NCBI GenBank assembly: GCA_017609205.1
Contig: JAFCEL010000001.1
Coordinates: 330,001 to 362,000, forward strand
Reading direction: 5' to 3'
DNA from: Candidatus Saccharimonadota bacterium
GTDB taxonomy: Archaea; Nanobdellota; Nanobdellia; Pacearchaeales; GW2011-AR1
DNA length: 32,000 nucleotides
Under the pieces are notes generated by a model, which made no database searches, had not been told where the DNA came from, and worked only from the letters and a program-made list of their open reading frames with translations. The position numbers and the translations under genes were made by a program. Positions 3,898 to 23,805 of the stretch are shown in pieces (within the stretch, counting starts at the first letter, position 1; every line of letters starts with the position of its first letter).

Positions 3898-3901
3898 TCT
3901 A

Positions 3902-8736: not shown

Positions 8737-11025
8737 ATGCAGTTTGAAAAAGGTGAGAGATTATATTCTTCAAGGGTTCAAAGAGAGAGCGGTGAAGATG
8801 TATTGTATATTAATTATTTAGGGGCTCCTTATGTTCCGAGTCTTGAAAATTCCGAGGAGGTAATGGAGAGAACTATTGAGGCTTTAATTGAGAATCCGAA
8901 TGTTTCAAGAGTTGTTTTTGTTCAGCAGAAAAATTATAATTATGATTTTGAAGAGGTTTCAATGCTTCTTGAGATTTCTCATTTGTATGTTCATTTAATG
9001 AAACAGGAAAAGATTTTGTCGCATAATAAGTTAGTAACTAATTGTGAGCAGTTTTTTAATGAGAGATATAATGATATTTTTTCTTTTTTGCTATTATTGA
9101 AGAGAGACCCTGTTGCAGCTTATTTCGAGCTTAAGAAGCTTATTTTAGAAGCAAAGATTTTCCTTGAAAAAGTTGATGTGCATTGCAGAACAGATCAAGC
9201 TAATTACATTTCCCTTCTTGAGAAAGTTCTTAGGTTATTACAGAATACAAAGCTTATTCAAAAAGCAAGCAAGTATTTAGAGAATTATCGAAAAGGAGAG
9301 AGGCTTATCTATGAGAGATTATTTAATGCAGATGTTATACCCAATTTTACTTTTACCCGTCTTGTTTCTGATTTGCCAAAAGACGCAGAAATTATTGACC
9401 AGTATAAAATTCATGGAGAGGATTATGATGAGTCGATTGTAACTATTCTTAAAAAAAAGGATGAATCAAAAGTAATCTATCATATTGTTCCTCCGGAAAA
9501 TTCCCTTGAAGAAGATGCTAATTATTTATTGAATACTGCTAAAAGTGTTTTGATTGAACATCAGCCTAAAGCAGAAGAATATACTGATACTGAAAGAACA
9601 AGGCAGGTTTTTTTTAATATTTCTAAAGATTTATTGAGAGATTTGGCGAATAATAAAGGGATTAAATTGAATTATGATGAGTTAAATAAGTTAGCTATGA
9701 TCTTGGTCAGGCATACTGTTGGTTTTGGGATTGTTGAGGTTTTATTACAGGATAAAAAAATACAAGATATCTCCTTGAATGCCCCAATTCCTATGACGCC
9801 AATTTTTTTAAGGCACGAGAAGTATGGCGAATGTTTTACAAATATTCTTCCTAGCCAAGAGGATGCTAATTCATGGGCAGCTAAATTCAGAATGATTTCT
9901 GGAAGGCCTCTTGATGAGGCGAATCCTATTTTAGATACTCAGTTAGAAATTGGAAATGTAAGAGCGAGAATAGCGATTATTCAAACACCTCTGTCCCCTG
10001 GTGGGTTAGCTTATGCTATAAGAAGACACCGAGAACAACCATGGACGCTTCCACTTTTTATAAAGAATAGGATGGTCAATGATTTTACTGCTGGTTTGTT
10101 GAGTTTTTTGATTGATGGGTCAAGAACTCTTCTTGTAGCAGGAACTAGAAGTTCTGGTAAAACCTCTTTATTGGGAAGCCTTCTTTTAGAGATAATACCC
10201 AAGCATAGAATAATTGTTCTTGAAGACACTCTTGAATTGCCTGTTGAATCTTTAAGAAAATTAAATTATGATGTTCTAAGGATGAAGGTTCGTTCTGCCT
10301 TATTGAAAACCACCACAGAAGTTTCTGCTTCAGAAGGGATCAGAACTTCATTAAGATTAGGGGATAGTTCTTTAATCGTCGGTGAAATTAGAAGTGAGGA
10401 GGCAACTGCGTTGTATGAAGCAATGAGGGTTGGTGCTTTAGCAAATGTTGTTGCTGGCACAATTCATGGAGCATCACCTTATGCTGTTTTTGATAGGGTG
10501 GTTAATGATTTAAAAGTTCCGACGACAAGTTTTAAGGCAACTGATTTGATTATTGTATGCAATCCAATTAAATCTCCTGATGGACTACATTCTTGGAAGA
10601 GAGTCTTGCAGGTTGCTGAGGTCAGAAAACATTGGAATAAAGACCCTCTTGAAGAAAGGGGTTTTGTGGATTTGCTTAAATATAATGTGGATAAGGATGA
10701 ATTAGAGCCTACGGATGATTTGATTAATGGTGATAGTGAGATTATAAAAGATATTGCGGCGAATGTTAAAGGGTGGGCAGGAAATTGGGATGCTGTTTAT
10801 GATAATATTCTGCTAAGGGCTAGAATTAAAAAAGAAATTGTGGATGTTGCTGAGAAGACTAAAAATGAGAAATTGCTTGAGGCAGAATTTAATGTTTTAT
10901 CTAATCATATGTTTCATAAGATTTCCGATGATATCCGAAGAGAGATTGGTTTGCCTTTGAGGGAGAGGGTTTTTCCTGAATGGCAGAAGTGGTTGAATGA
11001 AGAGATTAAAAAAAAGAGGATTTAA
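8737..11025 (+). CDS. Type IV pilus/archaellum-family secretion ATPase (FlaI/PilB/GspE/VirB11 superfamily)
   Basis: Walker A AGTRSSGKTS, Walker B-type IIVLEDTLEL and His-box AGTIHG. Has a long N-terminal extension and is followed directly by a polytopic partner gene. Confidence 0.9.
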   Translation: MQFEKGERLYSSRVQRESGEDVLYINYLGAPYVPSLENSEEVMERTIEALIENPNVSRVVFVQQKNYNYDFEEVSMLLEISHLYVHLMKQEKILSHNKLVTNCEQFFNERYNDIFSFLLLLKRDPVAAYFELKKLILEAKIFLEKVDVHCRTDQANYISLLEKVLRLLQNTKLIQKASKYLENYRKGERLIYERLFNADVIPNFTFTRLVSDLPKDAEIIDQYKIHGEDYDESIVTILKKKDESKVIYHIVPPENSLEEDANYLLNTAKSVLIEHQPKAEEYTDTERTRQVFFNISKDLLRDLANNKGIKLNYDELNKLAMILVRHTVGFGIVEVLLQDKKIQDISLNAPIPMTPIFLRHEKYGECFTNILPSQEDANSWAAKFRMISGRPLDEANPILDTQLEIGNVRARIAIIQTPLSPGGLAYAIRRHREQPWTLPLFIKNRMVNDFTAGLLSFLIDGSRTLLVAGTRSSGKTSLLGSLLLEIIPKHRIIVLEDTLELPVESLRKLNYDVLRMKVRSALLKTTTEVSASEGIRTSLRLGDSSLIVGEIRSEEATALYEAMRVGALANVVAGTIHGASPYAVFDRVVNDLKVPTTSFKATDLIIVCNPIKSPDGLHSWKRVLQVAEVRKHWNKDPLEERGFVDLLKYNVDKDELEPTDDLINGDSEIIKDIAANVKGWAGNWDAVYDNILLRARIKKEIVDVAEKTKNEKLLEAEFNVLSNHMFHKISDDIRREIGLPLRERVFPEWQKWLNEEIKKKRI

Positions 11026-11039
11026 GGAAGATTTATTAA

Positions 11040-13235
11040 TTGTTTTCTCTTTTTATTTCTGAAAAGATGGTGTCAAATAAGAAATCTGTTCAAGATATCC
11101 TGAGGGAGCATTCTGCAAGAATCGAGAAGCAAATTAATACAAGTAATATTAATGAGTCGAGTTATAGTGGAGATTATTTAAGGTTTAAGCAGGAGAGAAT
11201 ACCTGAATTAACAAGGTATGAGAAATGGTGTAAAAGTCTTGGGAATATTTTTAGATTAAAAATATCAGAGAAGGATAAATCACGGGTAAGAAAAAATCTG
11301 AACATCGCACATTTGGATGTTGAACCAGAGCAAGCACTTACACTTAGTATTGTGTCCTTTGTAGGAATTCTTCTTTTTGGATTGTTAATCTCTGTTGCAG
11401 TTGTTTTAATTAGAGGAGATCTGTCTTCTTTTCCTATTTTATTTTTTATTCTTGTAATTATTTTGTCTTTGTTTATCTTTTACTTTACGAAAAATTATCC
11501 TGCGAGACTTGCGAATAAGTGGAGACTAAAAGCTTCGTCGCAGATGGTTCCTGCAATCTTGTACATTGTTGTTTATATGAGGCATACACCTAATCTTGAA
11601 AAAGCGATTGCTTTTGCTTCAGAGCATCTTCAGCCACCTTTGGCACTTGACTTAAAGAAAGTTTTTTATGATGTTTCTATCGGAAGGTTTTCAACAATAA
11701 AGGAAAGTCTGGATTTTTATCTTGAGACTTGGAGGGATTATTCCCCTGAGTTTATAGAATCCTTTCACTTGATTGAAAGTAGCTTATTTGAACCAGATAA
11801 TAACAGAAGAATCTTGATTCTTGAGAAATCCTTGCAGGTTGTTCTCGACGGAGTTTATGATAAGATGTTGAAATTTACTCATAATGTTCGCTCTCCTTTG
11901 ACAAATGTTTATATGTTAGGTGTTGTTCTTCCAACGTTGGGGCTTGCTCTTCTTCCTCTTGCTTCTGCAATGATTGGAGGATTGATTAAATGGCATCATA
12001 TTTTTCTTTTGTTCAATCTTATTGTTCCTTTTTTTGTTTTTTACCTCACAGATAAGATTATGTTTTTAAGACCAGGAGGTTATGGAGAGACGACTTTATT
12101 AGAGAGGAATCCTCTTTATCCAAAATATAAAAGTAAGAAACCTTATCTCATTGCCTTTTTTGTTTGCCTGCCTTTTTTAGTTTTAGGGTTTCTTCCTTTT
12201 ATTTTTCAGTATACCCCTATTCCTTCTTTAGTAGGGCTTCAGAAGGATTATACTCTTGAACAGGTAGGTCTTGGGTTTTTTGGAAAGGATTACCTTTTTG
12301 ATTTTAAGGAATCATCTTCAGGGGTTGTAGGACCTTTTGGTATTCTTGCACTTATTCTTAGTTTTTTTATTCCAATAGGAATAGCTTTATTTTTTGCGAT
12401 TTCTTTTAAGATGAAAACAGAGGAATTGATTGTTGAAAGAGAAAAAACTCGTGAATTAGAAAAAGAATTTAATAATTCTCTTTTTCAGTTGGGAAATAGA
12501 ATTGGTAATGGAATTCCCCCTGAATTAGTATTTGGAAAGGTTGCTGAATCTGCAAAAGGCCTTAGAACAGAGGATTTATTTCGAAGAATTAATTACAATA
12601 TTCAACAAATGGGTATGAGTGTTGAGAAAGCTGTTTTTGATAAAAATCGTGGGGTCTTAATTTATTATCCTTCTGATTTGATTGCAACTTCTATGAGGAT
12701 TCTTATTGAATCTTCTAAAAAAGGATTAAATATTGCTGCAGTGAGTTTGATGAGCATTTCTCAATATGTTAAGAATATCCAGAAGATTACTGAGAGATTA
12801 AAGGATATGCTTGCAGAAATTGTTTCTGATATGAAAAGCAATATGACTTTTCTTGCTCCACTTCTTTCTGGAATTGTCGTAGGGTTGGCTATGATGATGA
12901 CATCGATTCTTAATAAGCTTAATTTTTCTACTCTTGGTGGAGGAGAAGGTTCTCTTGGAATTGGGAGTCTTGGGACGATTCTTCAGATTTTTGATGTAAC
13001 GAGGATGATTCCCCCTTATTATCTTCAAATTATTGTGGGTATTTATCTTATTGAAATCATATTTATCCTAACAGGAGCCCTTGTTACAATTAACTCGGGT
13101 GAAGATAAACTTGAGAGAACAAACAAAGCAGGAGGAAATTTTATGAGGGGAATTTTATTATATTCTCTTACAGCCTTTTTTGCATCAATTGCTCTTTTTG
13201 CTTTAACTTCAATTGTTCTTGGAAATTTATTCTAG
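11040..13235 (+). CDS. FlaJ/PilC/TadC-like polytopic platform protein
   Basis: 731-aa ORF with two clusters of transmembrane helices separated by soluble regions. It sits directly after the ATPase, as in archaeal type IV pilus loci. The start is TTG 11040 or ATG 11067. Confidence 0.7.
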   Translation: MFSLFISEKMVSNKKSVQDILREHSARIEKQINTSNINESSYSGDYLRFKQERIPELTRYEKWCKSLGNIFRLKISEKDKSRVRKNLNIAHLDVEPEQALTLSIVSFVGILLFGLLISVAVVLIRGDLSSFPILFFILVIILSLFIFYFTKNYPARLANKWRLKASSQMVPAILYIVVYMRHTPNLEKAIAFASEHLQPPLALDLKKVFYDVSIGRFSTIKESLDFYLETWRDYSPEFIESFHLIESSLFEPDNNRRILILEKSLQVVLDGVYDKMLKFTHNVRSPLTNVYMLGVVLPTLGLALLPLASAMIGGLIKWHHIFLLFNLIVPFFVFYLTDKIMFLRPGGYGETTLLERNPLYPKYKSKKPYLIAFFVCLPFLVLGFLPFIFQYTPIPSLVGLQKDYTLEQVGLGFFGKDYLFDFKESSSGVVGPFGILALILSFFIPIGIALFFAISFKMKTEELIVEREKTRELEKEFNNSLFQLGNRIGNGIPPELVFGKVAESAKGLRTEDLFRRINYNIQQMGMSVEKAVFDKNRGVLIYYPSDLIATSMRILIESSKKGLNIAAVSLMSISQYVKNIQKITERLKDMLAEIVSDMKSNMTFLAPLLSGIVVGLAMMMTSILNKLNFSTLGGGEGSLGIGSLGTILQIFDVTRMIPPYYLQIIVGIYLIEIIFILTGALVTINSGEDKLERTNKAGGNFMRGILLYSLTAFFASIALFALTSIVLGNLF

Positions 13236-13271
13236 CAGAAGTTTTATTAATAACAGATTTGTTTTAGAGTT

Positions 13272-13436
13272 ATGAAGTTTTTTTGTAAAAAAGGTGATGT
13301 TGAGACTAGTCAGCTAATAGGATGGGCCATTGCTATTGGCGTCTTTATTATTTTCTTCCTTTTTTTTATTAAGGGTGGAGAATGGGGGAAAGGAGCTGTT
13401 GATTTTGTAAGAAATCTTGTGAGGTTTGGAAGATGA
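13272..13436 (+). CDS. Mini prepilin-like protein (54 aa), not in ORF track
   Basis: MKFFCKKG|DVETSQLIGWAIAIGVFIIFFLFFI...: basic N-region, Gly, then a hydrophobic helix. Its TGA overlaps the next gene's ATG (ATGA at 13433-13436). Similar to the 42-aa ORF at 15104. Confidence 0.6.
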   Translation: MKFFCKKGDVETSQLIGWAIAIGVFIIFFLFFIKGGEWGKGAVDFVRNLVRFGR

Positions 13437-14194
13437 AATGTAAGAAAGCGAGTATTGCAACTGATAAACCAATTATTTTGATAATAGGGCTTGTTGTTCT
13501 TGTGATTATTCTTAGTTTTATTTTCTTATTTGATCCTGACAAGGTTTTTGCCTTTTTTCCTGATTTTTCTTCTGCAAATGAGGATGTGGATGCAGATATT
13601 GGAAATATAGATTATTATTTATCTGAGTCTGCTTATATTGGTGTAGAATTCTTGGATTTTAAGGAGAGGAGTGAAGAGGAACTTTTAGAAGAAATGGATT
13701 ATGGGGAGAATGTGTTAAAAAAATGTTTTTGTGGTAAGGATTGTGAAGATTATGCAATGTGGATTGTGAAGTATTCTAAAGAGAATGATATCCCTGATCC
13801 CTTGCTTTTGTTGTCTATTATGATGCAGGAGAGTTCTTGCAAAAAAGACGCTTCTTCAGGAAGTTCTTTTGGCCTAATGCAAGTGAATTTAGTTCATTGT
13901 GGAAATTATGGTTTACCTGAAGATAAGGAAGAATGCAAAAAAATTCTTTTGGAAAATCCTGAGCAAAATATCAGGGTTGGTGCAAGGATTTTGAGAGATT
14001 CTTATAATATTTATCATAAAGGAAAGGTCTTTTCTAATGCATGTACAAAGGAATATCAAAAAGTTTTTTACAATGATTGGAAAGCAGCGATTAGAGGTTA
14101 TAATGGATGGGGGTGTGATAAGAATTATCCTCAGCAAGATAAATATGTGGAGGAGGTTGTTGCAAAATATAATCTTTTGTATAATATAAAATGA
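13433..14194 (+). CDS. Prepilin-like N-terminus fused to a lytic transglycosylase (SLT) domain
   Basis: N-terminus MKCKKASIATDKPIILIIGLVVLVIILSFIFLF. SLT motifs SIMMQESSC (catalytic E-S), FGLMQV and AAIRGYNGWG. Confidence 0.8.
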   Translation: MKCKKASIATDKPIILIIGLVVLVIILSFIFLFDPDKVFAFFPDFSSANEDVDADIGNIDYYLSESAYIGVEFLDFKERSEEELLEEMDYGENVLKKCFCGKDCEDYAMWIVKYSKENDIPDPLLLLSIMMQESSCKKDASSGSSFGLMQVNLVHCGNYGLPEDKEECKKILLENPEQNIRVGARILRDSYNIYHKGKVFSNACTKEYQKVFYNDWKAAIRGYNGWGCDKNYPQQDKYVEEVVAKYNLLYNIK

Positions 14195-15093
14195 ACAATC
14201 ACGGTGATATAACATTAAAAGAATTTCTTGGAATAGCCATATTTATTATTGCAACACTTGTATTCTTTTTCCCCTTAGTTGGGAAATCCTGGGCAGTATT
14301 CAAAGGTGTTTCTGACAAGGAAAAATCAGATGTGAAACTTAATTTAATTTTTGAGAAGGTAGAGAAGATGGTTAGCGAGAATATTTCAGAGGATAGAAGC
14401 ATTCTCCTTGATTCTCCTAGAAATTGGTTTTTAGTGGGTTCTGGGGATAAGTTGTGTATTTGTAAAAATCTTGCAAAAGATGATGAGAATCAAGAGGAAG
14501 TTTGTAAAAGATATGGGGGAGTTTGTTCTGAGATGAGTTATGCTTTTAAAGTCGATTCTTATGAAGTGGATAATTCTAGAATGCAGGCAATTGTTGGGCG
14601 ACAATACGCTATAAAATTCGAAGTAAATAATTTTCTTGTAATAAGAAAAGATAAAAATAATTCTTTTATTTTTAGACCAAGTTCTGCTGAAACTGAACTG
14701 AATGATTTGTTGATGGATTATTTAGGTTCTAAGATTATTTACAACGGAAAACAGCAGACAATAGGTGAGTTTGTTAAGGACGCTTGTGAGAATCCAGAAT
14801 TATTCTATGAGAAATTATTTGAAAAGCATTTTTATAGTTTTTTTAATAGTGAAAAAATCCCTGAAGGGGAGCATATTAGAGTTGAATTTGGAAATCGATT
14901 GAGTCTTGGAAGCGAGAACTATGGGTTAATAAGTTCAGTTACTCTTCGAGAGATAAATTATCCTAAGGATTCACAATTTTCTAATAATTTTGTTCCTAAT
15001 GGAAAGTTTTCCACTAAACTTCCAACGACTTATGAGATTTTAAATGATGATTGTGTAGTTTATTTAACTTCCACAACAGGCAATCTAAATTAG
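14191..15093 (+). CDS. Prepilin-like protein (300 aa)
   Basis: MNNHG|DITLKEFLGIAIFIIATLVFFFPLV. ATGA overlap with the upstream gene. No other domain recognised. Confidence 0.6.
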   Translation: MNNHGDITLKEFLGIAIFIIATLVFFFPLVGKSWAVFKGVSDKEKSDVKLNLIFEKVEKMVSENISEDRSILLDSPRNWFLVGSGDKLCICKNLAKDDENQEEVCKRYGGVCSEMSYAFKVDSYEVDNSRMQAIVGRQYAIKFEVNNFLVIRKDKNNSFIFRPSSAETELNDLLMDYLGSKIIYNGKQQTIGEFVKDACENPELFYEKLFEKHFYSFFNSEKIPEGEHIRVEFGNRLSLGSENYGLISSVTLREINYPKDSQFSNNFVPNGKFSTKLPTTYEILNDDCVVYLTSTTGNLN

Positions 15094-15103
15094 AAAAAAT
15101 AAA

Positions 15104-15232
15104 ATGGTAAAAAAATTAGATAGAAAAGGTGAAATTTCAGAAATTCATTTTATTGACTGGTTATTATGGCTTGTTTTAGGCGTGATCCTTTTTGCAATAG
15201 TTTTTTATTTAAAAAAAAGGTTGTTTAATTAA
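15104..15232 (+). CDS. Mini prepilin-like protein (42 aa), not in ORF track
   Basis: MVKKLDRKG|EISEIHFIDWLLWLVLGVILFAIVFYLKKRLFN. Its stop is 1 nt before the next ATG (15234). Pattern KG-[DE]-[VI]-x-[ET]-x3-I-x-W is shared with the 13272 ORF. Confidence 0.55.
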   Translation: MVKKLDRKGEISEIHFIDWLLWLVLGVILFAIVFYLKKRLFN

Positions 15233-15233
15233 G

Positions 15234-16121
15234 ATGGAGAAGAGAGGATCGATTGTTGCAAACAAATTTGTGGGGATAGCTCTTTTAATTGCAGGGGCTA
15301 TGTTGATTATAGGATTTTTTTATTTTATAGATTGGGAAAAAGAAATTAGTCGCGAAGCATGTCACGAGTCAGTTATTGTTAGGGGAACACTACCAGACAC
15401 TTTTGAGTTTAAGAATCTTCCTTCGTTAAATTGTCAGACAAAAAGAATTTGTATTACTGATAAGCTGTTTGGGAAAGGAGATTGTGGTTATACTTCTTCA
15501 GATAATCCTGAGACAATAAGGGTTTCAAGTATTGCAGAGAAACAGGATAAAGAGATAAATAAAATCTTTGCAAGGGAAATGGCTGACTGCTGGGCAATGA
15601 TGGGTGAAGGAAAATTACAGATATTTACAAGGAATACTATTACAAAAAAGAGATGTTCTATTTGTACAATAATCTCTTTTGATGATGATTTAAGGAAAAA
15701 ACGAGATGTTATCTATGGTTTAGGTGATTATCTTATGACAAAACAGGTTCCTGGGAAAGAGCAGTCTTATGCTTTATTTTTAAAATTAAATAGAACTGAC
15801 TTAGAGAATCTGAATGGGATAACGACTAAAAGAAAGGCAATTTTATTCTTTGAAGTAGATAAATCTGATTTTTTAGAAAAAGGAGGCTTTGTTGTTGGGG
15901 GCATTGCTGGTTTTGTATTGGGAAAATTTGGAGGAAAACTTGCAAGTGTTGTAACAACAAAAACACTTTTTGCCATTGGGACTCTTGTTGGATATTCTGC
16001 GGGAGGTGTTGTTCAGGAAAAGATTTCTGAAGCAGATTATCTTTCTGGACATTCTCTTATTGATTATGACGAGGAACACTTAAAAGGGTTAGAGTGCGAT
16101 TCTATGGAAAGTCTCTCTTAG
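15234..16121 (+). CDS. Prepilin-like protein with a C-terminal glycine-zipper hydrophobic segment
   Basis: MEKRG|SIVANKFVGIALLIAGAMLIIGFFYF at the N-terminus. GGFVVGGIAGFVLGKFGGKLASVV...GTLVGYSAGGVV lies near the C-terminus. Several Cys in between. Confidence 0.6.
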   Translation: MEKRGSIVANKFVGIALLIAGAMLIIGFFYFIDWEKEISREACHESVIVRGTLPDTFEFKNLPSLNCQTKRICITDKLFGKGDCGYTSSDNPETIRVSSIAEKQDKEINKIFAREMADCWAMMGEGKLQIFTRNTITKKRCSICTIISFDDDLRKKRDVIYGLGDYLMTKQVPGKEQSYALFLKLNRTDLENLNGITTKRKAILFFEVDKSDFLEKGGFVVGGIAGFVLGKFGGKLASVVTTKTLFAIGTLVGYSAGGVVQEKISEADYLSGHSLIDYDEEHLKGLECDSMESLS

Positions 16122-16155
16122 TTAAATTTATAACTTTTCATTATTTATTGTTCTT

Positions 16156-16545
16156 ATGAAAAATAAAAGAGGGGATTTTGTTTTTGGCTATATTGTTACT
16201 ATTGCTGTTACTATAATCTTTTTTGTTATTTGTTTTGTTTTTTTATCAAGGGCATCAAGTGGGGCTGCAGTTTATGAGCAGGCATATTCAAAACAAATCG
16301 CTTTGATTATTGATAATGCAAGACCAAACACTATTTTTGAAATAGATTTTAGTGAAGGTATTGAATATCTTGAAAAAGAAAGAAAAAAGACACTAAGTAA
16401 TTCTGAAAAAAATTCTCTTGTTAAGATAGAAAATAATGAGGTAATTGTATCCCTCTCACAAGAAGGTTATTCCTCTGTTTTTTTTAGTGATTATGACGTT
16501 AGTTCCTCTTTTAATGAAAATAAACTTGTTTTGGTTGTAACATAA
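16156..16545 (+). CDS. Prepilin-like protein (129 aa)
   Basis: MKNKRG|DFVFGYIVTIAVTIIFFVICFVFL followed by a small soluble domain. Confidence 0.65.
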   Translation: MKNKRGDFVFGYIVTIAVTIIFFVICFVFLSRASSGAAVYEQAYSKQIALIIDNARPNTIFEIDFSEGIEYLEKERKKTLSNSEKNSLVKIENNEVIVSLSQEGYSSVFFSDYDVSSSFNENKLVLVVT

Positions 16546-16546
16546 A

Positions 16547-17038
16547 ATGAACAAAAAAGGAGAGAGAATTTTTTCAGTATGGTGGGTTCTTAGCATTGTC
16601 TTTATTAGTGTTGTTTTTGCAGGTGCAGTTTATATGATTTATTCAACAGACGTTAACATTCGTGATGAAGAATCAAAGATTCTGTATGAGAGAATTTATG
16701 ATTGTATTATTGAAAATGGTTATGTTTCTGAGGATTTTTTGAAGAATGATTTTGATATTTTTTCTGTGTGTAAATTGAATAAGAATCTTTTTTCAGAAGG
16801 ATTATTTGCATTTAGTATTTCTCTTTATGATGAAAATGATAATCTTGTTCAGGATAAATTCACAACTGGTTTTTCTGATATCTCTGAGAGATGTGTTTAT
16901 TCGAGAAGTTCAAAAAATTCTCCCACCTGCTTTGATAAAAAGTCTCTTGTTTTCTATTTTGATTCAAATAAAATCAGAAAGGGTTATCTTGAGATTCTTA
17001 CTGTTTCGAATAATTTTGAAAAGGGAGGTAGCAGATGA
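16547..17038 (+). CDS. Prepilin-like protein (163 aa)
   Basis: MNKKG|ERIFSVWWVLSIVFISVVFAGAVYMIY. Starts 1 nt after the previous stop. Confidence 0.65.
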   Translation: MNKKGERIFSVWWVLSIVFISVVFAGAVYMIYSTDVNIRDEESKILYERIYDCIIENGYVSEDFLKNDFDIFSVCKLNKNLFSEGLFAFSISLYDENDNLVQDKFTTGFSDISERCVYSRSSKNSPTCFDKKSLVFYFDSNKIRKGYLEILTVSNNFEKGGSR

Positions 17039-17577
17039 TATTGAGAAATAAGTGCGGTGGAATTCCGGAATCATTTTCTTGGTTTGTTGGTTTTTTAATA
17101 ATAATCTTTTTTTGTATTTTATTTCTTGCAGGAGTTTCATATTCAAAAGCAAAAAGTATTCCTCTTTCTTTTGGGGTTGGGGGCAATAATGTTGAAGGAT
17201 TTGGTGAAGGGGGTTGTGAGAAGGCCCTGAGTGAAGCCCTTATTAAGTTTGTCAATTATCCAGTAGCCCTTGAAAACGATTATAAGACTATTAAGGAATT
17301 TATTTCTGAAGATAATTTGTCGGATAATTTGTTCAAGGATTCTTCTGACGAGGTTTTTTCATCTTCCTTTCCAAAAAGTAGTTGGAAAGGTGGAGAGCCT
17401 CCTTGGTGGATAAAGGTTTATGGGTCTGATGGAAAAGAGATTTTTAGTAATGGGGGACGAATCTGCGAGTCAAAAGAGGAAGGTATTTATGAGCCAAGAG
17501 AAGATATTGTTTATGAGGTTTTAATTAAAGATAAGAAGGTTGTTGCGTGTTTGCTTAGAACATATTGTTCAGACTAA
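17035..17577 (+). CDS. Prepilin-like protein (180 aa)
   Basis: MILRNKCGG|IPESFSWFVGFLIIIFFCILFLAGV. ATGA overlap with the upstream gene. Confidence 0.6.
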   Translation: MILRNKCGGIPESFSWFVGFLIIIFFCILFLAGVSYSKAKSIPLSFGVGGNNVEGFGEGGCEKALSEALIKFVNYPVALENDYKTIKEFISEDNLSDNLFKDSSDEVFSSSFPKSSWKGGEPPWWIKVYGSDGKEIFSNGGRICESKEEGIYEPREDIVYEVLIKDKKVVACLLRTYCSD

Positions 17578-17578
17578 G

Positions 17579-18043
17579 ATGAAATCAAAAAATAATGCAG
17601 GAGTGATTGATGTTGTTGTAGTTGTTATGCTTTTTTTCGCATTAGTAGTTTCTTCTTTATTTGTTTTTTCAATGAGTTTTTCAAAGGCAAAAGTGAAAAT
17701 TTATGATTATCAGTTTATTGACGGTTTTTATGCAAAAGAGAAAATTGCAAAATATTATATTTTAGATGCAGGTCAAAAAGCAAAAAAGAAGATAAAAACT
17801 TTTTCTGATAAAGATGCTGTGAGAATTAATTTTATTTCTTATTTTAAGACTATTTTTTCTAACTATTCTTTTGATGAAGATTATTTAATCGAGCTTCAGA
17901 ATTCTGTGGAAAAAGATAATTTTGAGGTCGTTGTTGACGACGAGAAAATAATTATCAATGTTTATATGGAAATAAGTGGTTCGACAAGGAGTTTGAAAAT
18001 TATTTATCGTCCTGTGATTATAGAAGAATTTTATCTAGATTAA
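17579..18043 (+). CDS. Prepilin-like protein (154 aa)
   Basis: ATG at 17579 gives MKSKNNAG|VIDVVVVVMLFFALVVSSLFVF, 1 nt after the upstream stop. The track's alternative (non-ATG) start at 17540 would overlap the upstream gene by 38 nt. Confidence 0.6.
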   Translation: MKSKNNAGVIDVVVVVMLFFALVVSSLFVFSMSFSKAKVKIYDYQFIDGFYAKEKIAKYYILDAGQKAKKKIKTFSDKDAVRINFISYFKTIFSNYSFDEDYLIELQNSVEKDNFEVVVDDEKIIINVYMEISGSTRSLKIIYRPVIIEEFYLD

Positions 18044-18057
18044 AAACATTTATAAAT
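18042..18057 (+). promoter_or_regulatory. BRE/TATA-like promoter element of the Cys-rich prepilin-like gene (aaaaacatttataaat)
   Basis: Same 16-mer as at 27896-27911, ending about 21 nt upstream of ATG 18078. It lies in the only spacer over 30 nt inside the pilin gene string. Confidence 0.5.
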
Positions 18058-18077
18058 CTTATCTAATTAATAGAGAT

Positions 18078-18737
18078 ATGATAATAAAAAGGTGTGATAA
18101 ACATGGAGAAACTCAAGCATGGATTATTGGAATTATTCTTGCGATTGTTATTGGGGGATTAATATTATTTTTTGCTTCTAATGCATTCAGTAAAGTTGAG
18201 GGAGTTATAAATAAAGCTGATTTGGATATAGGGTTGATTTCACAAAAGTGTGATATTCAAATTGATATTTCAAAAGGAGAGGCTTATTGTGCTGAAAAGA
18301 TTCCTATTGGAGAAAGTAACAATTACATCACCTGCCCATATGCTAAGAAAAAGTTTGGCGTTACAACGGAGAGAGATATGCCTGAATGTGATATTGATGA
18401 GGGAGCAAAGGCTGTTTGTAGGAAATTGCTTGCAGAAGATAGCACAATTAAACCTGAGAAAATTTATGTTAATGAAAAACCTTGTTATAAGGCAGGGGGA
18501 ACAATAGGAAAGGATCATTGGGGGATTAATAGAGGAAGCTTTTGTGATGGGAATGCGATTGCTTGTGATAAATTGAGTTTATCAAATGACCCTCAGAAAG
18601 CAAAAAATGAGTGCGAATCCCAAAAAGGATGCGAATATAAAGAGAGTAAATGTGTTGGGACAGTCACTGCTTGTATAACTTTTGATGAATCACCCGAATG
18701 CGAATCCCAAAAAGGATGCTCTTGGATTGAAGTATAA
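18078..18737 (+). CDS. Cys-rich prepilin-like protein (219 aa)
   Basis: MIIKRCDKHG|ETQAWIIGIILAIVIGGLILFF, then a soluble region with about 15 Cys (hand count). It includes a duplicated ECESQKGC-x-[YW] unit. TATA-like box at 18049-18056. Confidence 0.65.
   Translation: MIIKRCDKHGETQAWIIGIILAIVIGGLILFFASNAFSKVEGVINKADLDIGLISQKCDIQIDISKGEAYCAEKIPIGESNNYITCPYAKKKFGVTTERDMPECDIDEGAKAVCRKLLAEDSTIKPEKIYVNEKPCYKAGGTIGKDHWGINRGSFCDGNAIACDKLSLSNDPQKAKNECESQKGCEYKESKCVGTVTACITFDESPECESQKGCSWIEV
18612..18719 (+). repeat. Intragenic 87-nt-period direct repeat (tgcgaatcccaaaaaggatgc x2)
   Basis: A 21-nt perfect repeat at 18612-18632 and 18699-18719 encoding CESQKGC twice within the 18078-18737 ORF. Confidence 0.85.
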
Positions 18738-18767
18738 ATATTTAAATTCTAATAAGTTTAATTTTAT

Positions 18768-18884
18768 ATGGCTCGTGGGGATGCTGAGCGACGGAATAAA
18801 GCAAAGAACAAAAGAAAAGAAAAGAAAAAACACCCTTATAGAAAAGGTGGTAAATATCGCTCTACAGGTTTAAAGCAGAAGTAA
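18768..18884 (+). CDS. Very basic 38-aa ORF, not in ORF track
   Basis: MARGDAERRNKAKNKRKEKKKHPYRKGGKYRSTGLKQK. TATA-like atatttaaat at 18738-18747 lies about 21 nt upstream of the ATG. Coding status is uncertain. Confidence 0.3.
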   Translation: MARGDAERRNKAKNKRKEKKKHPYRKGGKYRSTGLKQK

Positions 18885-18914
18885 TTTTATAAAGTTATCT
18901 TGTTTTTTTTATGA

Positions 18915-19739
18915 ATGTATAATGTGATTTTTTTGAGTGTTTTGACTATCTGTTGGATGATTGTTGCGAGTATTCAGGATATTAGGAAAAGAGAAATTGC
19001 TAATTGGCTTAATTTTTCTCTTATTATCTTTGCTCTTGGTTTTAGGTTTTTTTATTCTTCTTTTACTCATAATTTTGGGTTTTTTTATCAAGGGTTAATT
19101 GGATTAGGGATTTTTTTTGTTATTGGAAATATTTTTTATTATGGAAAGGTCTTTGCTGGGGGTGATGGAAAATTAATGGTTGCTCTCGGAGCAGTTCTTC
19201 CTTTTTCTGATAATTTTTTAACAAATATATCTGTTTTTATTGCTTTTATTTTTATTTTTTTAACAATTGGGGGGTTGTATGGTCTAGTCTGGAGTTTTGT
19301 TTTGGGAATTAAGAATTTTAAAAAATTAGAAAAAGAGTTTATTATCCAATTCAAGAAAAATAGAAAAGTTATTTTTTTAGTTTTAATTCCTGTATTCTCA
19401 ATGTTTTTGATATCTAGTCTAGTCTGGAGTTTGTTTTTTTATTTTGCTATATTAATCCTTGTTTTTGCTATTTTGTTTTTGTATGCAAGAAGTATAGAGG
19501 AAGTTTGCATGGTTAAAAAGATCTCAGTAGATGATTTAACAGAAGGAGACTGGCTTTATCGAACTGTTAGGGTTGGAAGGAAAGTTGTGAAGTCTAAGTG
19601 GGAAGGTGTTAATAAAGAGGAAATTAAATTGATAAGAAAATACCATAATAGGGTTAAGGTAAAATATGGAATCCCTTTTGCTCCGGTTTTTTTGATTAGT
19701 TTTCTGTTTTTGGTCTCTTTTTGGTTTGTGGTATTTTAA
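18915..19739 (+). CDS. A24-family prepilin/preflagellin peptidase (FlaK/PibD/EppA-like)
   Basis: Polytopic. First catalytic Asp context ASIQDIRKREI in TM1 and second Asp in a GxGD-type motif (FAGGDGKLMV). Extra soluble segment VDDLTEGDWLYRTVRVGRKVV before the last helix. Confidence 0.85.
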   Translation: MYNVIFLSVLTICWMIVASIQDIRKREIANWLNFSLIIFALGFRFFYSSFTHNFGFFYQGLIGLGIFFVIGNIFYYGKVFAGGDGKLMVALGAVLPFSDNFLTNISVFIAFIFIFLTIGGLYGLVWSFVLGIKNFKKLEKEFIIQFKKNRKVIFLVLIPVFSMFLISSLVWSLFFYFAILILVFAILFLYARSIEEVCMVKKISVDDLTEGDWLYRTVRVGRKVVKSKWEGVNKEEIKLIRKYHNRVKVKYGIPFAPVFLISFLFLVSFWFVVF

Positions 19740-19740
19740 T

Positions 19741-20349
19741 TTAAGGGATCCTTGGATTAATCCAAATGTCTTTTGCACTAATTTGTTTTATTGATGATTT
19801 TCCTTTTTTTTCAGTTAATTTTTTTTGGAGTTTTTTTAATTCTTCTTGTTCTGCAGATTTTCTTGGAGAATTTATATCTTCTTCTTTGTAAATCGGAAGG
19901 ATGTTAATGATTTCATGGCCTAGAATATTCTGGGTTGATATTTCAACTTCTTTTGGTTTTAGCTTTTCTTGTATTTTTTCCTTAACTTTTTTAGCTAAGA
20001 CAAAAATTTCCTCTGAAAATTCTTTTCTTGAGGATAAATGCTTTTTAGGAACTATTAGGGTATGTCCTTTTGAAATAGGGTTTATCTCTAATATAGCAAC
20101 TGCTTCTTCATTCTCGTCTATTTTATAGGAGGGAGTGTCTCTAGAGATAATTGAACAAAAGATACATTTTTGTCGAGAGGTATCTCGATTTTTTATTAAG
20201 CCGTTTTGTATTACAAATTCCTCAAGTTTTTCATTATTCATTTCTTTGAGTTTAGTTATTGCCTCTTCTTTTTTTTCTTCAGGAAATGTAGAATTAATTT
20301 GTTGAATTAATTTTTTTTTGATTTCTTTAATTTGTTCCTGTGTTAACAT
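19741..20349 (-). CDS. HIT-superfamily-like protein with a degenerate histidine triad
   Basis: CIFCSIISRD..., ILEINPISKGHTLIVPKKH match the HIT fold. Where H-x-H-x-H-x-x is expected the sequence reads GHEIINILP. About 60-aa K/E-rich N-terminal extension and a K-rich C-terminal tail. Confidence 0.65.
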   Translation of the reverse strand: MLTQEQIKEIKKKLIQQINSTFPEEKKEEAITKLKEMNNEKLEEFVIQNGLIKNRDTSRQKCIFCSIISRDTPSYKIDENEEAVAILEINPISKGHTLIVPKKHLSSRKEFSEEIFVLAKKVKEKIQEKLKPKEVEISTQNILGHEIINILPIYKEEDINSPRKSAEQEELKKLQKKLTEKKGKSSIKQISAKDIWINPRIP

Positions 20350-20408
20350 TAAATAAAGATGCTCTTTTCTATAAAAACTTTTATATATCTTTTAGTCTTG
20401 TTTTTTTA

Positions 20409-20666
20409 ATGAAAAAGATTATTGGATTGGTTCTTATTGTTGTGGGGTTTATTTTATTATTAGCTAATTTCAGTTTTATTGGGGAAAATCTTTCTAAGTT
20501 TATTCCTTTTATTAAAATTTTTCCAAAGAATTATATTCTCGGAGCAGGAGTTGTTCTTGTTTTGCTTGGATTGTTTTTTATGAAAAAGAATAATATCCCT
20601 GGTAAGAATTCTTTGGTCCCAATTTTCGAGGGTAAGAAAATTATTGGATATCAGAAAAGAAAATAA
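20409..20666 (+). CDS. Small two-helix membrane protein
   Basis: ATG 20409 gives MKKIIGLVLIVVGFILLLANF... The track's earlier (non-ATG) start at 20340 would overlap the divergent HIT gene's start. TATA-like ttttatatat about 21 nt upstream of 20409. Confidence 0.5.
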   Translation: MKKIIGLVLIVVGFILLLANFSFIGENLSKFIPFIKIFPKNYILGAGVVLVLLGLFFMKKNNIPGKNSLVPIFEGKKIIGYQKRK

Positions 20667-21416
20667 TTAGTTTTTTCTTATTGCTTTTAATTTTCTCTGA
20701 AGCCTGCGGATCATTTTTCTATATTGATGTAAGGATATAACATTTTTATCTAGGTCTTCCTTTGTTTGTATGATTTGCCTTCTAATATCTGTTTCAAATT
20801 TTTCTTTGTTTTGATGGCCTAATTGTTTCATTTCTTGGTTAATTATGGCTCTTCTAATTGTTCCGTCGAATAAAAGAAAGAAGAAAGCAAGAATCCCTGT
20901 GATAAGATATATCCATGCAAGGTTTCCTAATTCTGGGTATCTCATCTTCCATAATCCTAGGAATATAATCACAAAAAATATCCACGAGATTTTTCTTATT
21001 ATTGATGATTCAAATGATTGTGTAAAAATGAAGAATATTATCAGCGGGACTATTGCAGAAAGGGCTACCCCAAGGATGCTGTATGGAAGTAAAATGTTTT
21101 CTATTATTTGCCTATCTGATAGGAATCTTGTTGCAAGTAATGAAACTGCAAAAGCAATTATCATAAGGATCTTTGGGTCGCTTCCGAATAATTCTGTCTT
21201 GGATAGAGTCACTTTTATTAATGAGACAATTATTATAAATAACAAGATTTTTTCAAAGAGAATACCACTTTCACCTCCCAGGAAAGGAGCAATTAAAATT
21301 CTTGAAGCATCCTGGACTCCTTGGACTGCTTGTTCGAGCGTGTTTCCTAGATTATATGCAGAAATAAAATTTATGAATGTAAGTGTAATGACAAATATTA
21401 AAAATATCTTCTTCAT
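20667..21416 (-). CDS. Signal-peptide-bearing polytopic membrane protein, paralogue family member 1
   Basis: N-terminal signal-like MKKIFLIFVITLTFINFISA, blocks ILLPYSILGVALSAIVPLIIFFI, IRKISWIFFVIIFLGLW and FDGTIRR, and a basic coiled C-tail. All are shared with 21454-22251. Confidence 0.75.
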   Translation of the reverse strand: MKKIFLIFVITLTFINFISAYNLGNTLEQAVQGVQDASRILIAPFLGGESGILFEKILLFIIIVSLIKVTLSKTELFGSDPKILMIIAFAVSLLATRFLSDRQIIENILLPYSILGVALSAIVPLIIFFIFTQSFESSIIRKISWIFFVIIFLGLWKMRYPELGNLAWIYLITGILAFFFLLFDGTIRRAIINQEMKQLGHQNKEKFETDIRRQIIQTKEDLDKNVISLHQYRKMIRRLQRKLKAIRKN

Positions 21417-21453
21417 GGTTATCTGAAATTAAAGAAGTTTTTAAAATTTAGGT

Positions 21454-22251: not shown

Positions 22252-22345
22252 TTTTTATAATGGATAAATTCTTTTTAAATATTCTGTTTTGTAAATTGCA
22301 TTTTATTTTAGAAATATTTAAAAATAAAAAAAGCATGACTAACCT

Positions 22346-23062: not shown

Positions 23063-23106
23063 TCATTAATCCTAAATCTTAAAAACTCTTTTTGTTTTAG
23101 TTTTTT

Positions 23107-23796: not shown

Positions 23797-23805
23797 TTAG
23801 CTTCT

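What the first reader, a model, noticed from the sequence alone, without database searches (positions are those of the whole stretch)
13433..14194. Peptidoglycan lytic transglycosylase (SLT) domain carried on a prepilin-like N-terminus inside an archaeal pilus operon
The ORF has the family-1 SLT motifs: MQESSC with the catalytic Glu, then GLMQV, then RGYNGWG. They follow a pilin-type N-terminal helix, and the gene is translationally coupled on both sides within the pilus operon.

Bacterial secretion and pilus systems carry dedicated SLTs (VirB1, EtgA and BfpH types) to open their own murein. An archaeon has no murein, so the substrate would have to be external, for example the cell wall of a bacterial partner or prey.

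Alternatively the domain has been repurposed. Delivery on or by a pilus-like filament would be a distinctive mechanism.
Basis: partly seen in the sequence, partly recalled or inferred. Interest (0 to 1): 0.75.

Follow-up and report, generated by a model that had tools for sequence, protein, structure and literature searches.

The report
Wall-cutting enzyme on archaeal pilus subunit
A tiny DPANN archaeon, which has no bacterial-type cell wall of its own, encodes a bacterial-wall-cutting enzyme with a pilus-subunit-type N-terminus inside its pilus operon, which suggests how these archaea could breach bacterial partners.

Summary
ORF 13433-14194 (+, 253 aa) has a significant SLT/GH23 domain. Its catalytic Glu133 is invariant in all relatives and its predicted fold matches MltF, MltE, MltC, Slt and EtgA. 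It overlaps both neighbouring genes by 4 nt (ATGA).

The contig is archaeal (RadA, RPA, Hef, FlaK-type peptidase). All 32 related genome loci come from Woese-, Pace-, Nano- or Aenigmatarchaeota.

The N-terminus is class-III-signal-like (KKA|S, then a 22-aa hydrophobic helix). The operon's other small proteins share this pattern, and the operon ends with an A24 prepilin peptidase. The window protein has no pilin head: it is helix, disordered acidic linker, then enzyme.

Two new points:
- In relatives the same SLT domain is grafted onto at least five different pilin-like scaffolds of this operon type.
- In three loci a pilin-like N-acetylmuramoyl-L-alanine amidase lies beside it. This argues that the substrate is real murein.

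Archaeal SLT proteins are already published, but only as giant (up to 3,000 aa) secreted proteins. I found no description of the pilin-borne, operon-embedded form.

Best reading (about 0.5): a pilus-presented murein-lytic module aimed at bacterial partners. Processing, filament incorporation and activity are all untested. Verdict: new variant of a known kind, interest 0.62.

The parts
8737..11025 (+). Assembly ATPase (762 aa) of the type IV pilus / Tad / archaellum FlaI superfamily; first gene of the operon
   Evidence: Pfam T2SSE 4.6e-15. NCBIfam FlaI 5.3e-38, TadA 5.2e-35, bindosome BasE 1.2e-19.
11040..13235 (+). 731-aa polytopic membrane protein, the putative TadC/FlaJ-like platform. This identity is inferred.
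   Evidence: It lies directly downstream of the ATPase and is 60-80% identical across related loci. There is no significant Pfam or PDB match. Only 1 of 11 homologues gives a faint T2SSF hit, E=0.01.
13272..13436 (+). p54: a 54-aa protein with a KKG|D leader and a hydrophobic helix. Candidate Flp-like (major?) pilin. Its stop codon overlaps the SLT start codon (ATGA).
   Evidence: One or two tiny ORFs of 45-69 aa follow the platform gene in the operon-type loci that include it.
13433..14194 (+). The finding: a 253-aa protein made of a prepilin-like leader, a hydrophobic helix, an acidic disordered linker and a Cys-rich SLT (GH23 family-1-like) domain
13433..13531 (+). aa 1-33: basic leader MKCKKA, putative A24 cleavage site KKA|S, and hydrophobic helix (aa 12-33)
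   Evidence: The closest relatives keep K-[GA] just before the helix: KKKA|L, KKA|L, KKG|M, KRG|V, KQG|S, KKG|I. AF2 predicts a helix at 12-33. A [KRH][GA] motif lies upstream of the hydrophobic segment in 104/129 small SLT proteins against 2/39 giant ones.
13541..13618 (+). aa 37-62: acidic, predicted-disordered linker (flexible tether)
   Evidence: AF2 pLDDT is below 50 for residues 37-44 and 46-62.
13625..14191 (+). aa 65-253: globular lysozyme-like SLT domain with motifs QES(133-134), GLMQ(147-150) and YNG(223-225), and conserved cysteines C98, C100, C104, C136, C156, C168 and C228
   Evidence: pLDDT is above 90. Foldseek probability is 1.0 to MltF, MltE, MltC, Slt and EtgA. A PDB profile search gives MltC at 8.7e-10.
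13829..13831 (+). GAG codon of the predicted catalytic Glu133
   Evidence: Invariant in alignments A1 (31 sequences) and A2 (29 sequences). It aligns to the E of MQ(T/I)ESS in MltC; chain 4cfo carries Q at this position.
14191..15093 (+). pA300: pilin-like protein (HG|D leader plus helix). Its start codon overlaps the SLT stop codon.
15104..15232 (+). p42: tiny pilin-like ORF (RKG|E plus helix)
15234..16121 (+). pB295: pilin-like protein (KRG|S), conserved in nearly all related operons
16156..16545 (+). pC129: pilin-like protein (KRG|D). In other lineages this scaffold carries the SLT domain at its C-terminus.
   Evidence: for example P0023 50% identical at E 7e-29; P0079 E 2e-17.
16547..17038 (+). 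pD163: pilin-like protein (KKG|E). In other lineages this scaffold has SLT or Amidase_2 grafted on: SLT is inserted between its N- and C-terminal parts in P0010 and P0018, and Amidase_2 follows a pD163-like N-terminus in L012 and L036.
17035..18737 (+). pE180, pF (about 154-167 aa) and pG219: three further pilin-like ORFs
18915..19739 (+). Archaeal prepilin/preflagellin peptidase (A24, FlaK/PibD-like), the presumed processing enzyme
   Evidence: Pfam Peptidase_A24 7.7e-14 plus Arc_PepC. NCBIfam FlaK 1.2e-12. It is conserved at the operon end in related loci.

Best explanation
The gene encodes an extracellular family-1-type lytic transglycosylase (GH23/SLT) of a Woese-/Pacearchaeota-type DPANN archaeon. 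It is made with a class III (prepilin-like) signal and is co-expressed with a Tad/type-IV-pilus-like operon.

Proposed mechanism, with each step marked as shown or inferred:
1. The precursor inserts into the membrane through its N-terminal helix (inferred).
2. The operon's A24 peptidase removes the short basic leader at KKA|S (inferred from the motif and the context).
3. The retained hydrophobic helix lets the ATPase/platform machinery place the protein in or at the base of the filament as a minor, probably tip-located, modular subunit (inferred).
4. The Cys-rich SLT domain hangs on a disordered tether of about 25 residues (predicted).
5. On contact with a bacterial partner, Glu133 cleaves the MurNAc-beta-1,4-GlcNAc bonds of its murein. 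This locally opens the sacculus for attachment, penetration or nutrient release (domain identity shown; activity and target inferred).

In sister lineages the same job is shared with a pilin-borne MurNAc-L-Ala amidase.
For: **Domain identity**
- Pfam SLT 1.4e-12.
- PDB profile hits to MltC, MltE, Slt70 and EtgA, with the catalytic Glu aligned.
- AF2 model with pLDDT 86, and Foldseek hits only to bacterial lytic transglycosylases.
- E133, S134, G147, M149 and Q150 are invariant; Y223 and G225 are invariant or nearly so.

**Extracellular location**
- Seven conserved cysteines.

**Class-III-like N-terminus**
- K-[GA] is conserved just before the helix in the closest relatives.
- The same pattern occurs in nine neighbouring ORFs.
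- The motif is found in 104/129 small SLT proteins against 2/39 giant ones, which have Sec-type signals.
- An A24 peptidase is encoded in the operon.

**Operon membership**
- 4-nt overlaps on both sides.
- The SLT gene lies inside the ATPase/platform/pilin/A24 operon in about 17 independent DPANN loci.

**Selection for pilin linkage**
- The SLT domain is grafted onto at least five different pilin-like scaffolds: p110-type 69, pC129-type 17, window-type 15, pD163-type 8 and p135-type 4 sequences.
- The P0015 model shows a 50-residue alpha-1 helix, the SLT domain, then a C-terminal beta-hairpin.

**Murein as substrate**
- Pilin-like Amidase_2 proteins lie adjacent to the SLT gene in L036, L012 and L013, with E values from 1e-20 to 3e-25, on two different scaffolds.

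**Literature**
- Published work already infers bacterial-wall targeting for the giant DPANN SLT proteins (PMC8204110, PMC9723730).
Against: - There is no experimental evidence for cleavage, filament incorporation or enzyme activity.
- The window protein has no pilin head domain. A plain signal-anchor would look the same.
- The +1 Ser and the charged D5/K6 after the putative cleavage site are atypical, and the hydrophobic run starts only at +7.
- No Pfam or NCBIfam pilin model hits any ORF of the operon.
- The platform protein could not be tied significantly to T2SSF.
- The bacterial partner is unknown. In diderm bacteria the murein would be shielded by the outer membrane.
- I could not check the whole genome for murein synthesis genes.
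Confidence: 0.5

Rival explanations
1. Surface-tethered enzyme that is not part of a filament. The N-terminal helix acts as a membrane anchor, or as part of a short bindosome-like pseudopilus at the cell surface. This holds the SLT domain at the archaeon-bacterium contact zone. The pilus supplies adhesion only, and the genes are simply co-regulated.
For: - The AF2 model shows helix, disordered linker and enzyme, with no pilin head.
- The ATPase also matches the bindosome ATPase BasE, 1.2e-19.
- From my own knowledge of Sulfolobus sugar-binding proteins: archaea put class III signals on non-pilin proteins.
Against: - The domain is repeatedly grafted onto bona fide operon subunits that have longer pilin-like parts: a 50-residue alpha-1 helix plus beta-hairpin in the p110-type, and the whole pC129 and pD163 scaffolds.
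- This pattern is more easily explained by filament presentation.
- The target would still be murein.
Confidence: 0.27
2. The domain has been repurposed for a non-murein glycan, such as chitin or chito-oligosaccharides, the glycans of an archaeal host, or pseudomurein.
For: - From my own knowledge: GH23 also contains chitinases and hydrolytic g-type lysozymes.
- The domain is a divergent, Cys-rich, DPANN-only clade with only 323 relatives among 1.84e9 representatives.
- Cultivated DPANN have archaeal hosts (abstracts of PMC8204110 and PMC11537232).
Against: - The catalytic motifs are strictly of the lytic transglycosylase type and conserved.
- The neighbouring Amidase_2 in three operons targets the MurNAc-L-Ala bond, which is specific to murein.
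- From established chemistry, not tested here: pseudomurein has beta-1,3-linked N-acetyltalosaminuronic acid and cannot give a 1,6-anhydro product.
Confidence: 0.1
3. A housekeeping 'space-making' enzyme, like VirB1, EtgA, IagB or BfpH. It would open the producer's own wall so that the pilus can pass.
For: - It is encoded inside the operon of an envelope-spanning machine, as the bacterial specialised lytic transglycosylases are.
- There are weak NCBIfam and PDB hits to IagB and EtgA.
Against: - The organism is an archaeon, and all relatives are DPANN.
- The literature treats murein transglycosylases as normally absent from archaea, because there is no substrate (PMC8204110).
- No murein synthesis gene occurs in the 32-kb window.
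- The same domain also sits at the end of 2,000-3,000-aa secreted proteins, which makes no sense for a housekeeping role.
Confidence: 0.03
4. Artefact: the contig is bacterial or chimeric, or the ORF is a mis-assembled bacterial gene.
For: One close homologue (P0079) is labelled 'Patescibacteria group bacterium'.
Against: - The P0079 locus is the same archaeal-type operon.
- The window has uniform GC.
- Archaeal marker genes lie on both sides.
- Synteny is conserved in more than 15 MAGs from independent studies, including contigs of 375 kb and 777 kb.
Confidence: 0.01

Closest known systems
Giant extracellular SLT-domain proteins of Woesearchaeota and Pacearchaeota (fam00969 of Castelle et al. 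2021, PMC8204110; 'large lytic murein transglycosylase' of Vigneron et al. 2022, PMC9723730)
   Same: - The same Cys-rich SLT domain clade: the giant protein P0141 is 57% identical over the domain.
- The same phyla.
- The same inferred target, bacterial murein.
   Different: - The giant proteins are 1,000-3,000 aa, with a Sec-type signal peptide and a C-terminal SLT domain. They are encoded outside the pilus operon, after a ~615-aa protein in 8 of the 13 giant-protein loci.
- The window protein is 253 aa, has a prepilin-like N-terminus and sits inside the pilus operon.
- The papers do not mention pili.
Bacterial modular type IV pilins (PilB and PilC of Streptococcus sanguinis; survey in Raynaud et al. 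2021, PMC8179133)
   Same: A functional module is grafted through a linker onto a pilin-type N-terminus for presentation by the filament, probably at its tip. The grafting is recurrent and evolutionarily flexible.
   Different: - They are bacterial and defined by the IPR012902 motif.
- Their modules are adhesins, lectins or peptidases. That paper names no peptidoglycan hydrolase module.
- Here the host is archaeal, the module is enzymatic and murein-lytic, and the window variant lacks a pilin head.
Specialised lytic transglycosylases of bacterial secretion and pilus systems (VirB1, EtgA, IagB, BfpH)
   Same: A small family-1 SLT domain encoded within the operon of a trans-envelope machine. There is weak sequence and fold similarity to EtgA and IagB.
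   Different: Those enzymes cut the producer's own sacculus and are Sec-exported periplasmic proteins. Here the producer is an archaeon, and the enzyme carries a class-III-type N-terminus.
Housekeeping family-1 lytic transglycosylases (MltC, MltE, MltF, Slt70)
   Same: The catalytic fold and the motifs ES, GLMQ and YNxG. These are the best PDB sequence and fold matches.
   Different: - Identity is only about 16-22%.
- The DPANN domain has seven conserved cysteines and a distinct N-terminal C-x-C-x3-C helix.
- It has no lipobox or periplasmic context.
Sulfolobus bindosome (Bas system) substrate-binding proteins with class III signal peptides
   Same: Non-pilin functional proteins in an archaeon carry prepilin-type signals and depend on a dedicated ATPase/membrane-protein pair. 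The window ATPase matches BasE at 1.2e-19.
   Different: The bindosome cargo are sugar-binding proteins used for uptake. There is no lytic enzyme and no cross-domain target. This comparison rests on my own knowledge and was not tested here.

Membership tests
Family-1 lytic transglycosylase / SLT domain (PF01464, GH23) | Significant match to the SLT profile | tested here: met
   47.7 bits against a gathering score of 21.3, E=1.4e-12. A PDB profile search gives MltC at 8.7e-10.
Family-1 lytic transglycosylase / SLT domain (PF01464, GH23) | Catalytic Glu in the E-S motif, conserved in orthologues | tested here: met
   E133-S134 is invariant in 31/31 and 29/29 sequences. It aligns with the ESS motif of MltC.
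Family-1 lytic transglycosylase / SLT domain (PF01464, GH23) | Motifs II (GLMQ) and III (A/G-Y-N-x-G) | tested here: met
   G147 and Q150 are invariant in both alignments, and M149 is invariant or nearly so. Y223 and G225 are invariant in A2. N224 is at least 90% conserved in A1.
Family-1 lytic transglycosylase / SLT domain (PF01464, GH23) | Lysozyme-like all-alpha fold | tested here: met
   The AF2 domain has pLDDT above 90. Foldseek probability is 1.0 to MltF, MltE, MltC, Slt and EtgA.
Family-1 lytic transglycosylase / SLT domain (PF01464, GH23) | Cleaves MurNAc-GlcNAc bonds with formation of 1,6-anhydroMurNAc | not testable with these tools
   This needs an enzyme assay.
Archaeal type IV pilin / class III signal peptide protein | Short basic leader ending in G/A, directly followed by a hydrophobic helix of about 20 residues | tested here: met
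   The sequence reads MKCKKA|SIATDKPIILIIGLVVLVIILSFIFLF. K-[GA] is conserved in the closest relatives, and 104/129 small proteins carry the motif against 2/39 giant ones. Atypical: charged D5/K6 precede the helix.
Archaeal type IV pilin / class III signal peptide protein | Processing by an A24 prepilin peptidase | not testable with these tools
   An A24 (FlaK-like) gene ends the operon. Cleavage itself is untested.
Archaeal type IV pilin / class III signal peptide protein | Pilin globular head packed on the C-terminal half of alpha-1 | tested here: not met
   The window protein consists of a helix at 12-33, a disordered stretch at 37-62 and then the SLT domain. The related p110-type has a 50-residue helix plus a low-confidence beta-hairpin.
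Archaeal type IV pilin / class III signal peptide protein | Match to a curated pilin family model | tested here: not met
   No Pfam or NCBIfam pilin model hits this protein or any neighbour. Archaeal pilins are poorly covered by these libraries, so this counts only weakly.
Archaeal type IV pilin / class III signal peptide protein | Incorporation into a filament | not testable with these tools
   This needs purified filaments or cryo-ET.
Type IV pilus / Tad-like operon | Secretion ATPase, polytopic platform protein, several pilin-like genes and a prepilin peptidase | tested here: inconclusive
   The ATPase, the peptidase and the pilin-like N-termini are met. The platform protein has no significant T2SSF match; only 1 of 11 homologues hits, at E=0.01.
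Specialised secretion-system lytic transglycosylases (VirB1/EtgA/IagB type) | Acts on the producer's own murein | not tested
   The producer is an archaeon. No mur genes occur in the window, but the whole genome was not available.
Giant DPANN SLT proteins (fam00969) | Very large (up to about 3,000 aa) Sec-secreted protein with a C-terminal SLT domain | tested here: not met
   The protein is 253 aa with a class-III-like N-terminus. It shares only the SLT domain with that family.

The most novel reading that the evidence does not exclude
Woese-, Pace- and Aenigmatarchaeota assemble a type-IV-pilus-like filament whose minor subunits are murein-degrading enzymes: a lytic transglycosylase and, in some lineages, a MurNAc-L-Ala amidase. 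This would be a 'lytic pilus' that drills through the wall of bacterial, probably monoderm, partners. It would be the first enzymatically armed archaeal pilus and a concrete molecular mechanism for cross-domain episymbiosis or predation by DPANN archaea.
Probability: 0.35. Interest if true: 0.85.

Novelty: new variant of a known kind. Interest (0 to 1): 0.62.

Why it matters
The hosts and lifestyle of Woese- and Pacearchaeota, which are among the most abundant uncultured archaea, are unknown. Whether they live on bacteria is an open question, argued so far only from giant SLT proteins.

A murein-lytic module that evolution has repeatedly welded onto pilus subunits, sometimes together with an amidase, ties wall degradation to the contact organelle. 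It gives testable predictions:
- processing by the operon's peptidase;
- presence in filaments;
- activity on murein but not on pseudomurein;
- partners whose murein is accessible to the enzyme.

It would also extend the 'modular pilin' principle to archaea and to lytic enzymes. The small soluble domains are easy to express.

Tried and rejected
- **Single-sequence PDB search:** no hit. A profile search was needed.
- **tblastn of the domain against phage and plasmid collections:** no match. This gives no sign of a mobile-element origin.
- **Search for a bacterial donor.** The phmmer search of 1.84e9 representatives returned only the DPANN clade. The word-indexed profile search also returned only DPANN-labelled proteins, plus one 'Patescibacteria' label that turned out to be the same archaeal operon. 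A rooted phylogeny with bacterial outgroups could therefore not be built.
- **NJ tree and nearest neighbours of 242 domains.**
  - The alignment was gappy (485 columns).
  - It was used only to show that the p110-type and window-type domains cluster by scaffold.
  - The apparent mixing of giant-protein domains with the small types is not reliable.
- **Platform protein identity.** Pfam at E<=10, a PDB profile search and Pfam scans of 11 homologues gave only one faint T2SSF hit.
- **Pilin family models:** none hit.
- **tRNA and Rfam scans of the window:** nothing found.
- **My first prepilin regex** also matched 11/49 Sec-type giant proteins. I replaced it with a stricter comparison.
- **Literature searches for pilin-linked SLT in DPANN:** nothing found. 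The library lacks most subscription journals, so absence is not proof.
- **Bacterial or chimeric contig:** considered and rejected.
- **Pseudomurein as substrate:** considered and judged unlikely on chemical grounds. It is subsumed in the 0.10 non-murein rival.
Full report
**1. Observation**

- Its translation contains ...SIMMQESSC......FGLMQVN... and ...IRGYNGWGC....
- Pfam assigns an SLT domain (PF01464, E=1.4e-12, 47.7 bits against a cut-off of 21.3, aa 116-230).
- The gene overlaps its upstream neighbour (p54, 13272..13436) and its downstream neighbour (14191..15093) by 4 nt each, as ATGA. JGI's own gene calls on the source contig agree.

**2. Where it sits**

The window is archaeal.
- It carries Rad51/RadA (5e-90), an RPA-like OB-fold protein, a Hef-type helicase with a separate ERCC4 nuclease, and a Peptidase_A24 with the archaeal Arc_PepC domain.
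- GC content is even, at about 0.31-0.33, across the operon.

From 8737 to 19739 all genes lie on the + strand with tiny gaps:
- a FlaI/TadA/BasE-type ATPase;
- a 731-aa polytopic membrane protein;
- the tiny p54;
- the SLT gene;
- eight further ORFs;
- the A24 peptidase.

Ten of these ORFs start with a short basic leader ending in [KRHCN]-G/A, followed by a hydrophobic helix: KKG|D, KKA|S, HG|D, RKG|E, KRG|S, KRG|D, KKG|E, KCG|G, NAG|V and KHG|E. That is the pattern of archaeal class III signals.

The membrane protein is the best-conserved component, at 60-80% identity between loci. I could not tie it significantly to T2SSF/TadC: there is no PDB hit, and only one of 11 homologues gives a faint Pfam hit. 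Its role as the platform is therefore inferred from position.

**3. The protein**

AlphaFold2 with 31 homologues gives mean pLDDT 86.
- A helix covers residues 12-33.
- A disordered acidic stretch covers residues 37-62.
- A confident globular domain runs from about residue 65 to 253.

Foldseek against the PDB returns, among its significant matches, only bacterial lytic transglycosylases: MltF, MltE, MltC, Slt/LtgA and EtgA, at probability 1.0. A profile search of PDB sequences finds MltC (8.7e-10), MltE, Slt70 and EtgA. Glu133 aligns to the Glu of the ESS motif, and the deposited MltC chain 4cfo carries Gln at exactly that position.

In the alignment of 31 full-length relatives, E133, S134, C136, G147, M149, Q150 and N179 are invariant. 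In the alignment of 29 domains, C104, Y107, S128, Q132, E133, S134, C136, G147, Q150, Y223 and G225 are invariant.

The domain carries seven conserved cysteines: C98, C100, C104, C136, C156, C168 and C228. This fits an extracellular protein and sets it apart from the bacterial enzymes.

The window protein has no pilin head domain. It is 'pilin-like' only in its leader and helix.

**4. Relatives and distribution**

- A scan of one genome per species found 32 loci. All come from Woese-, Pace-, Nano- or Aenigmatarchaeota.
- A profile search of 5.8 billion proteins gave 132 hits. Every organism name attached to the listed hits is DPANN or 'archaeon', except one 'Patescibacteria' label. That locus (L036) is the same archaeal operon and is probably mis-binned.
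- An exhaustive phmmer search of 1.84 billion cluster representatives found only 323 relatives at E<=1e-3.
- tblastn against the phage and plasmid collections found nothing.

So this is a compact, divergent, DPANN-restricted branch of SLT with no close bacterial donor in sight. The proposed test for horizontal transfer cannot currently be rooted.

**5. Two architectures**

*(a) Giant proteins.* These are 1,000-3,000 aa, with Sec-type signal peptides and the SLT domain at the extreme C-terminus. They are the proteins already described in the literature.

*(b) Small proteins.* These are about 170-520 aa and lie inside the pilus operon in about 17 loci. The operon itself sits in a conserved chromosomal neighbourhood: A24, HIT, EF-1-beta, RPA, YdjM, RadA.

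A [KRH][GA] motif lies within 12 residues upstream of the hydrophobic segment in 104 of 129 small proteins, but in only 2 of 39 giant ones.

**6. New evidence for pilus linkage**

I masked the SLT domain and compared the remaining parts of the small proteins with the stand-alone pilin-like proteins of these operons. The domain turns out to be grafted onto at least five different scaffolds:

| Scaffold | Sequences | Arrangement |
|---|---|---|
| p110-type | 69 | SLT inserted after the long N-terminal helix; the AF2 model of P0015 (pLDDT 77.5) shows helix 13-62, SLT, then a C-terminal beta-hairpin |
| pC129-type | 17 | SLT at the C-terminus; up to 50% identity to window pC129, E=7e-29 |
| window-type | 15 (7 distinct) | helix, acidic linker, SLT |
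| pD163-type | 8 | SLT inserted between the N- and C-terminal parts of the scaffold (both parts detected in P0010 and P0018) |
| p135-type | 4 | not characterised further |

Such repeated grafting onto subunits of one machine is what 'modular pilins' look like in bacteria (PMC8179133). It is hard to explain if the operon location were accidental.

**7. New evidence for murein as the substrate**

In L036, L012 and L013 the gene next to the pilin-like SLT encodes a second pilin-like protein that carries an Amidase_2 (N-acetylmuramoyl-L-alanine amidase) domain. The E values are 1.7e-23, 3e-25 and 9e-20. The amidase sits on two different scaffolds.

The L036 sequence contains IHYTE and IGHDEIDPGERSDPGP. 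From my own knowledge of the T7-lysozyme fold, these match its zinc-binding motifs.

A glycan-strand cutter together with a stem-peptide amidase is the classical pair for murein. Neither bond exists in pseudomurein; that point is established chemistry and was not tested here.

**8. Mechanism**

*Shown:*
- the domain identity;
- the conserved catalytic residues;
- the class-III-like N-terminus;
- operon membership and coupling;
- archaeal (DPANN) origin;
- recurrent fusion to pilin-like scaffolds;
- the associated amidase.

*Inferred:*
- cleavage by the operon's A24 peptidase at KKA|S;
- recruitment of the retained helix by the ATPase/platform machinery as a minor, probably tip-located, subunit;
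- local cleavage of a bacterial partner's murein on contact.

I put this at about 0.5. The main rival (0.27) keeps the target but not the filament: a membrane- or bindosome-like tethered enzyme at the contact zone. It is favoured by the absence of a pilin head in the window variant. Repurposing for another glycan gets 0.10, a housekeeping own-wall role 0.03 and an artefact 0.01.

**9. Comparison with what is known**

Murein-like lytic transglycosylase domains in Woese- and Pacearchaeota, read as tools against bacterial walls, are published.
- Castelle et al. 2021 describe fam00969, 'proteins up to 3,000 aa', and cite Rinke 2013 and Castelle 2015 (PMC8204110).
- Vigneron et al. 2022 describe a 'large lytic murein transglycosylase' and a 'vampiristic' lifestyle (PMC9723730).
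- The idea is repeated in PMC10936187, PMC11537232 and PMC12352652.

None of these mentions pili or pilins. The census of archaeal type IV pili (PMC4858521) does not mention transglycosylases or DPANN. Targeted searches for DPANN with pilin and transglycosylase found nothing relevant.

The general phenomenon is therefore known. What appears undescribed is the small, prepilin-type form embedded in the operon, its multiple scaffolds and the partner amidase. I classify it as a new variant of a known kind. It works like a modular pilin or a specialised secretion-system lytic transglycosylase. It is a member of the SLT family, but not of the giant fam00969 architecture. Its membership among true pilins is unproven, because the head-domain test was not met for this protein.

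**10. Verdict**

Interest is 0.62. A specialist would find the repeated pilin grafting and the paired amidase notable. The finding turns the open question of whether these archaea attack bacteria into concrete experiments.

Noticed in passing
L036:5948-7126; L012:7053-8141; L013:2369-3358: Pilin-like proteins (KNG|K, RKG|D and KKA|Q leaders plus a hydrophobic helix) carry an Amidase_2 (N-acetylmuramoyl-L-alanine amidase) domain. They lie directly next to the pilin-like SLT gene in three related DPANN pilus operons, on two different scaffolds (pD163-type and p164-type).
   Followed up: partly
window 27849-32000 (+), runs off the window end: An open reading frame of at least 1,383 aa encodes an extremely Cys-, Trp-, Asn- and Asp-rich secreted-looking protein with an N-terminal hydrophobic segment. 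It has no Pfam hit and no similarity to the giant SLT proteins or to any ORF in the fetched loci. It is probably a DPANN giant surface protein.
   Followed up: partly
L006, L011, L014, L015, L019, L020, L024-L026, L028-L030, L035: Giant proteins (1,329-2,510 aa) end in the same SLT domain. In 8 of these 13 loci they are preceded by a protein of about 615 aa with a hydrophobic N-terminus and no annotation. This partner gene was not examined.
   Followed up: no
P0021 (263 aa, single 3.5-kb JGI contig): The N-terminal half of a Peptidase_A24 is fused in frame to an SLT domain that lacks its first helices (Pfam 7.9e-14 and 1.3e-5). It is probably a deletion or an assembly chimera joining the two ends of the operon. 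It is seen only once.
   Followed up: partly
L036 / P0079: A protein that NCBI labels 'Patescibacteria group bacterium' sits in an operon whose platform and pilin-like genes are homologous to the archaeal window operon. The MAG record is probably mis-binned.
   Followed up: yes
window 11040-13235: The 731-aa polytopic membrane protein downstream of the ATPase is the most conserved gene of the operon (60-80% identity across loci). Yet it has no significant match to T2SSF/TadC/FlaJ or to any PDB chain. It may be a very divergent or novel platform protein.
   Followed up: partly
window 13272-13436 and 15104-15232: Two tiny ORFs (54 and 42 aa) consist almost only of a prepilin-like leader plus one hydrophobic helix. 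Comparable 45-69-aa ORFs follow the platform gene in the operon-type loci that include it. They are candidate Flp-like major pilins.
   Followed up: no
window 3214-5452 (-): The Hef-like helicase (516 aa; DEAD/Helicase_C) and the ERCC4-HhH nuclease (227 aa) are separate adjacent genes rather than one fused Hef protein.
   Followed up: no
window 18915-27341 and L002, L009, L012, L016, L018: The neighbourhood downstream of the pilus operon is conserved: A24 peptidase, HIT (-), EF-1-beta (-), RPA-like OB protein, YdjM, RadA. This points to a stable, vertically inherited chromosomal position for the operon.
   Followed up: partly
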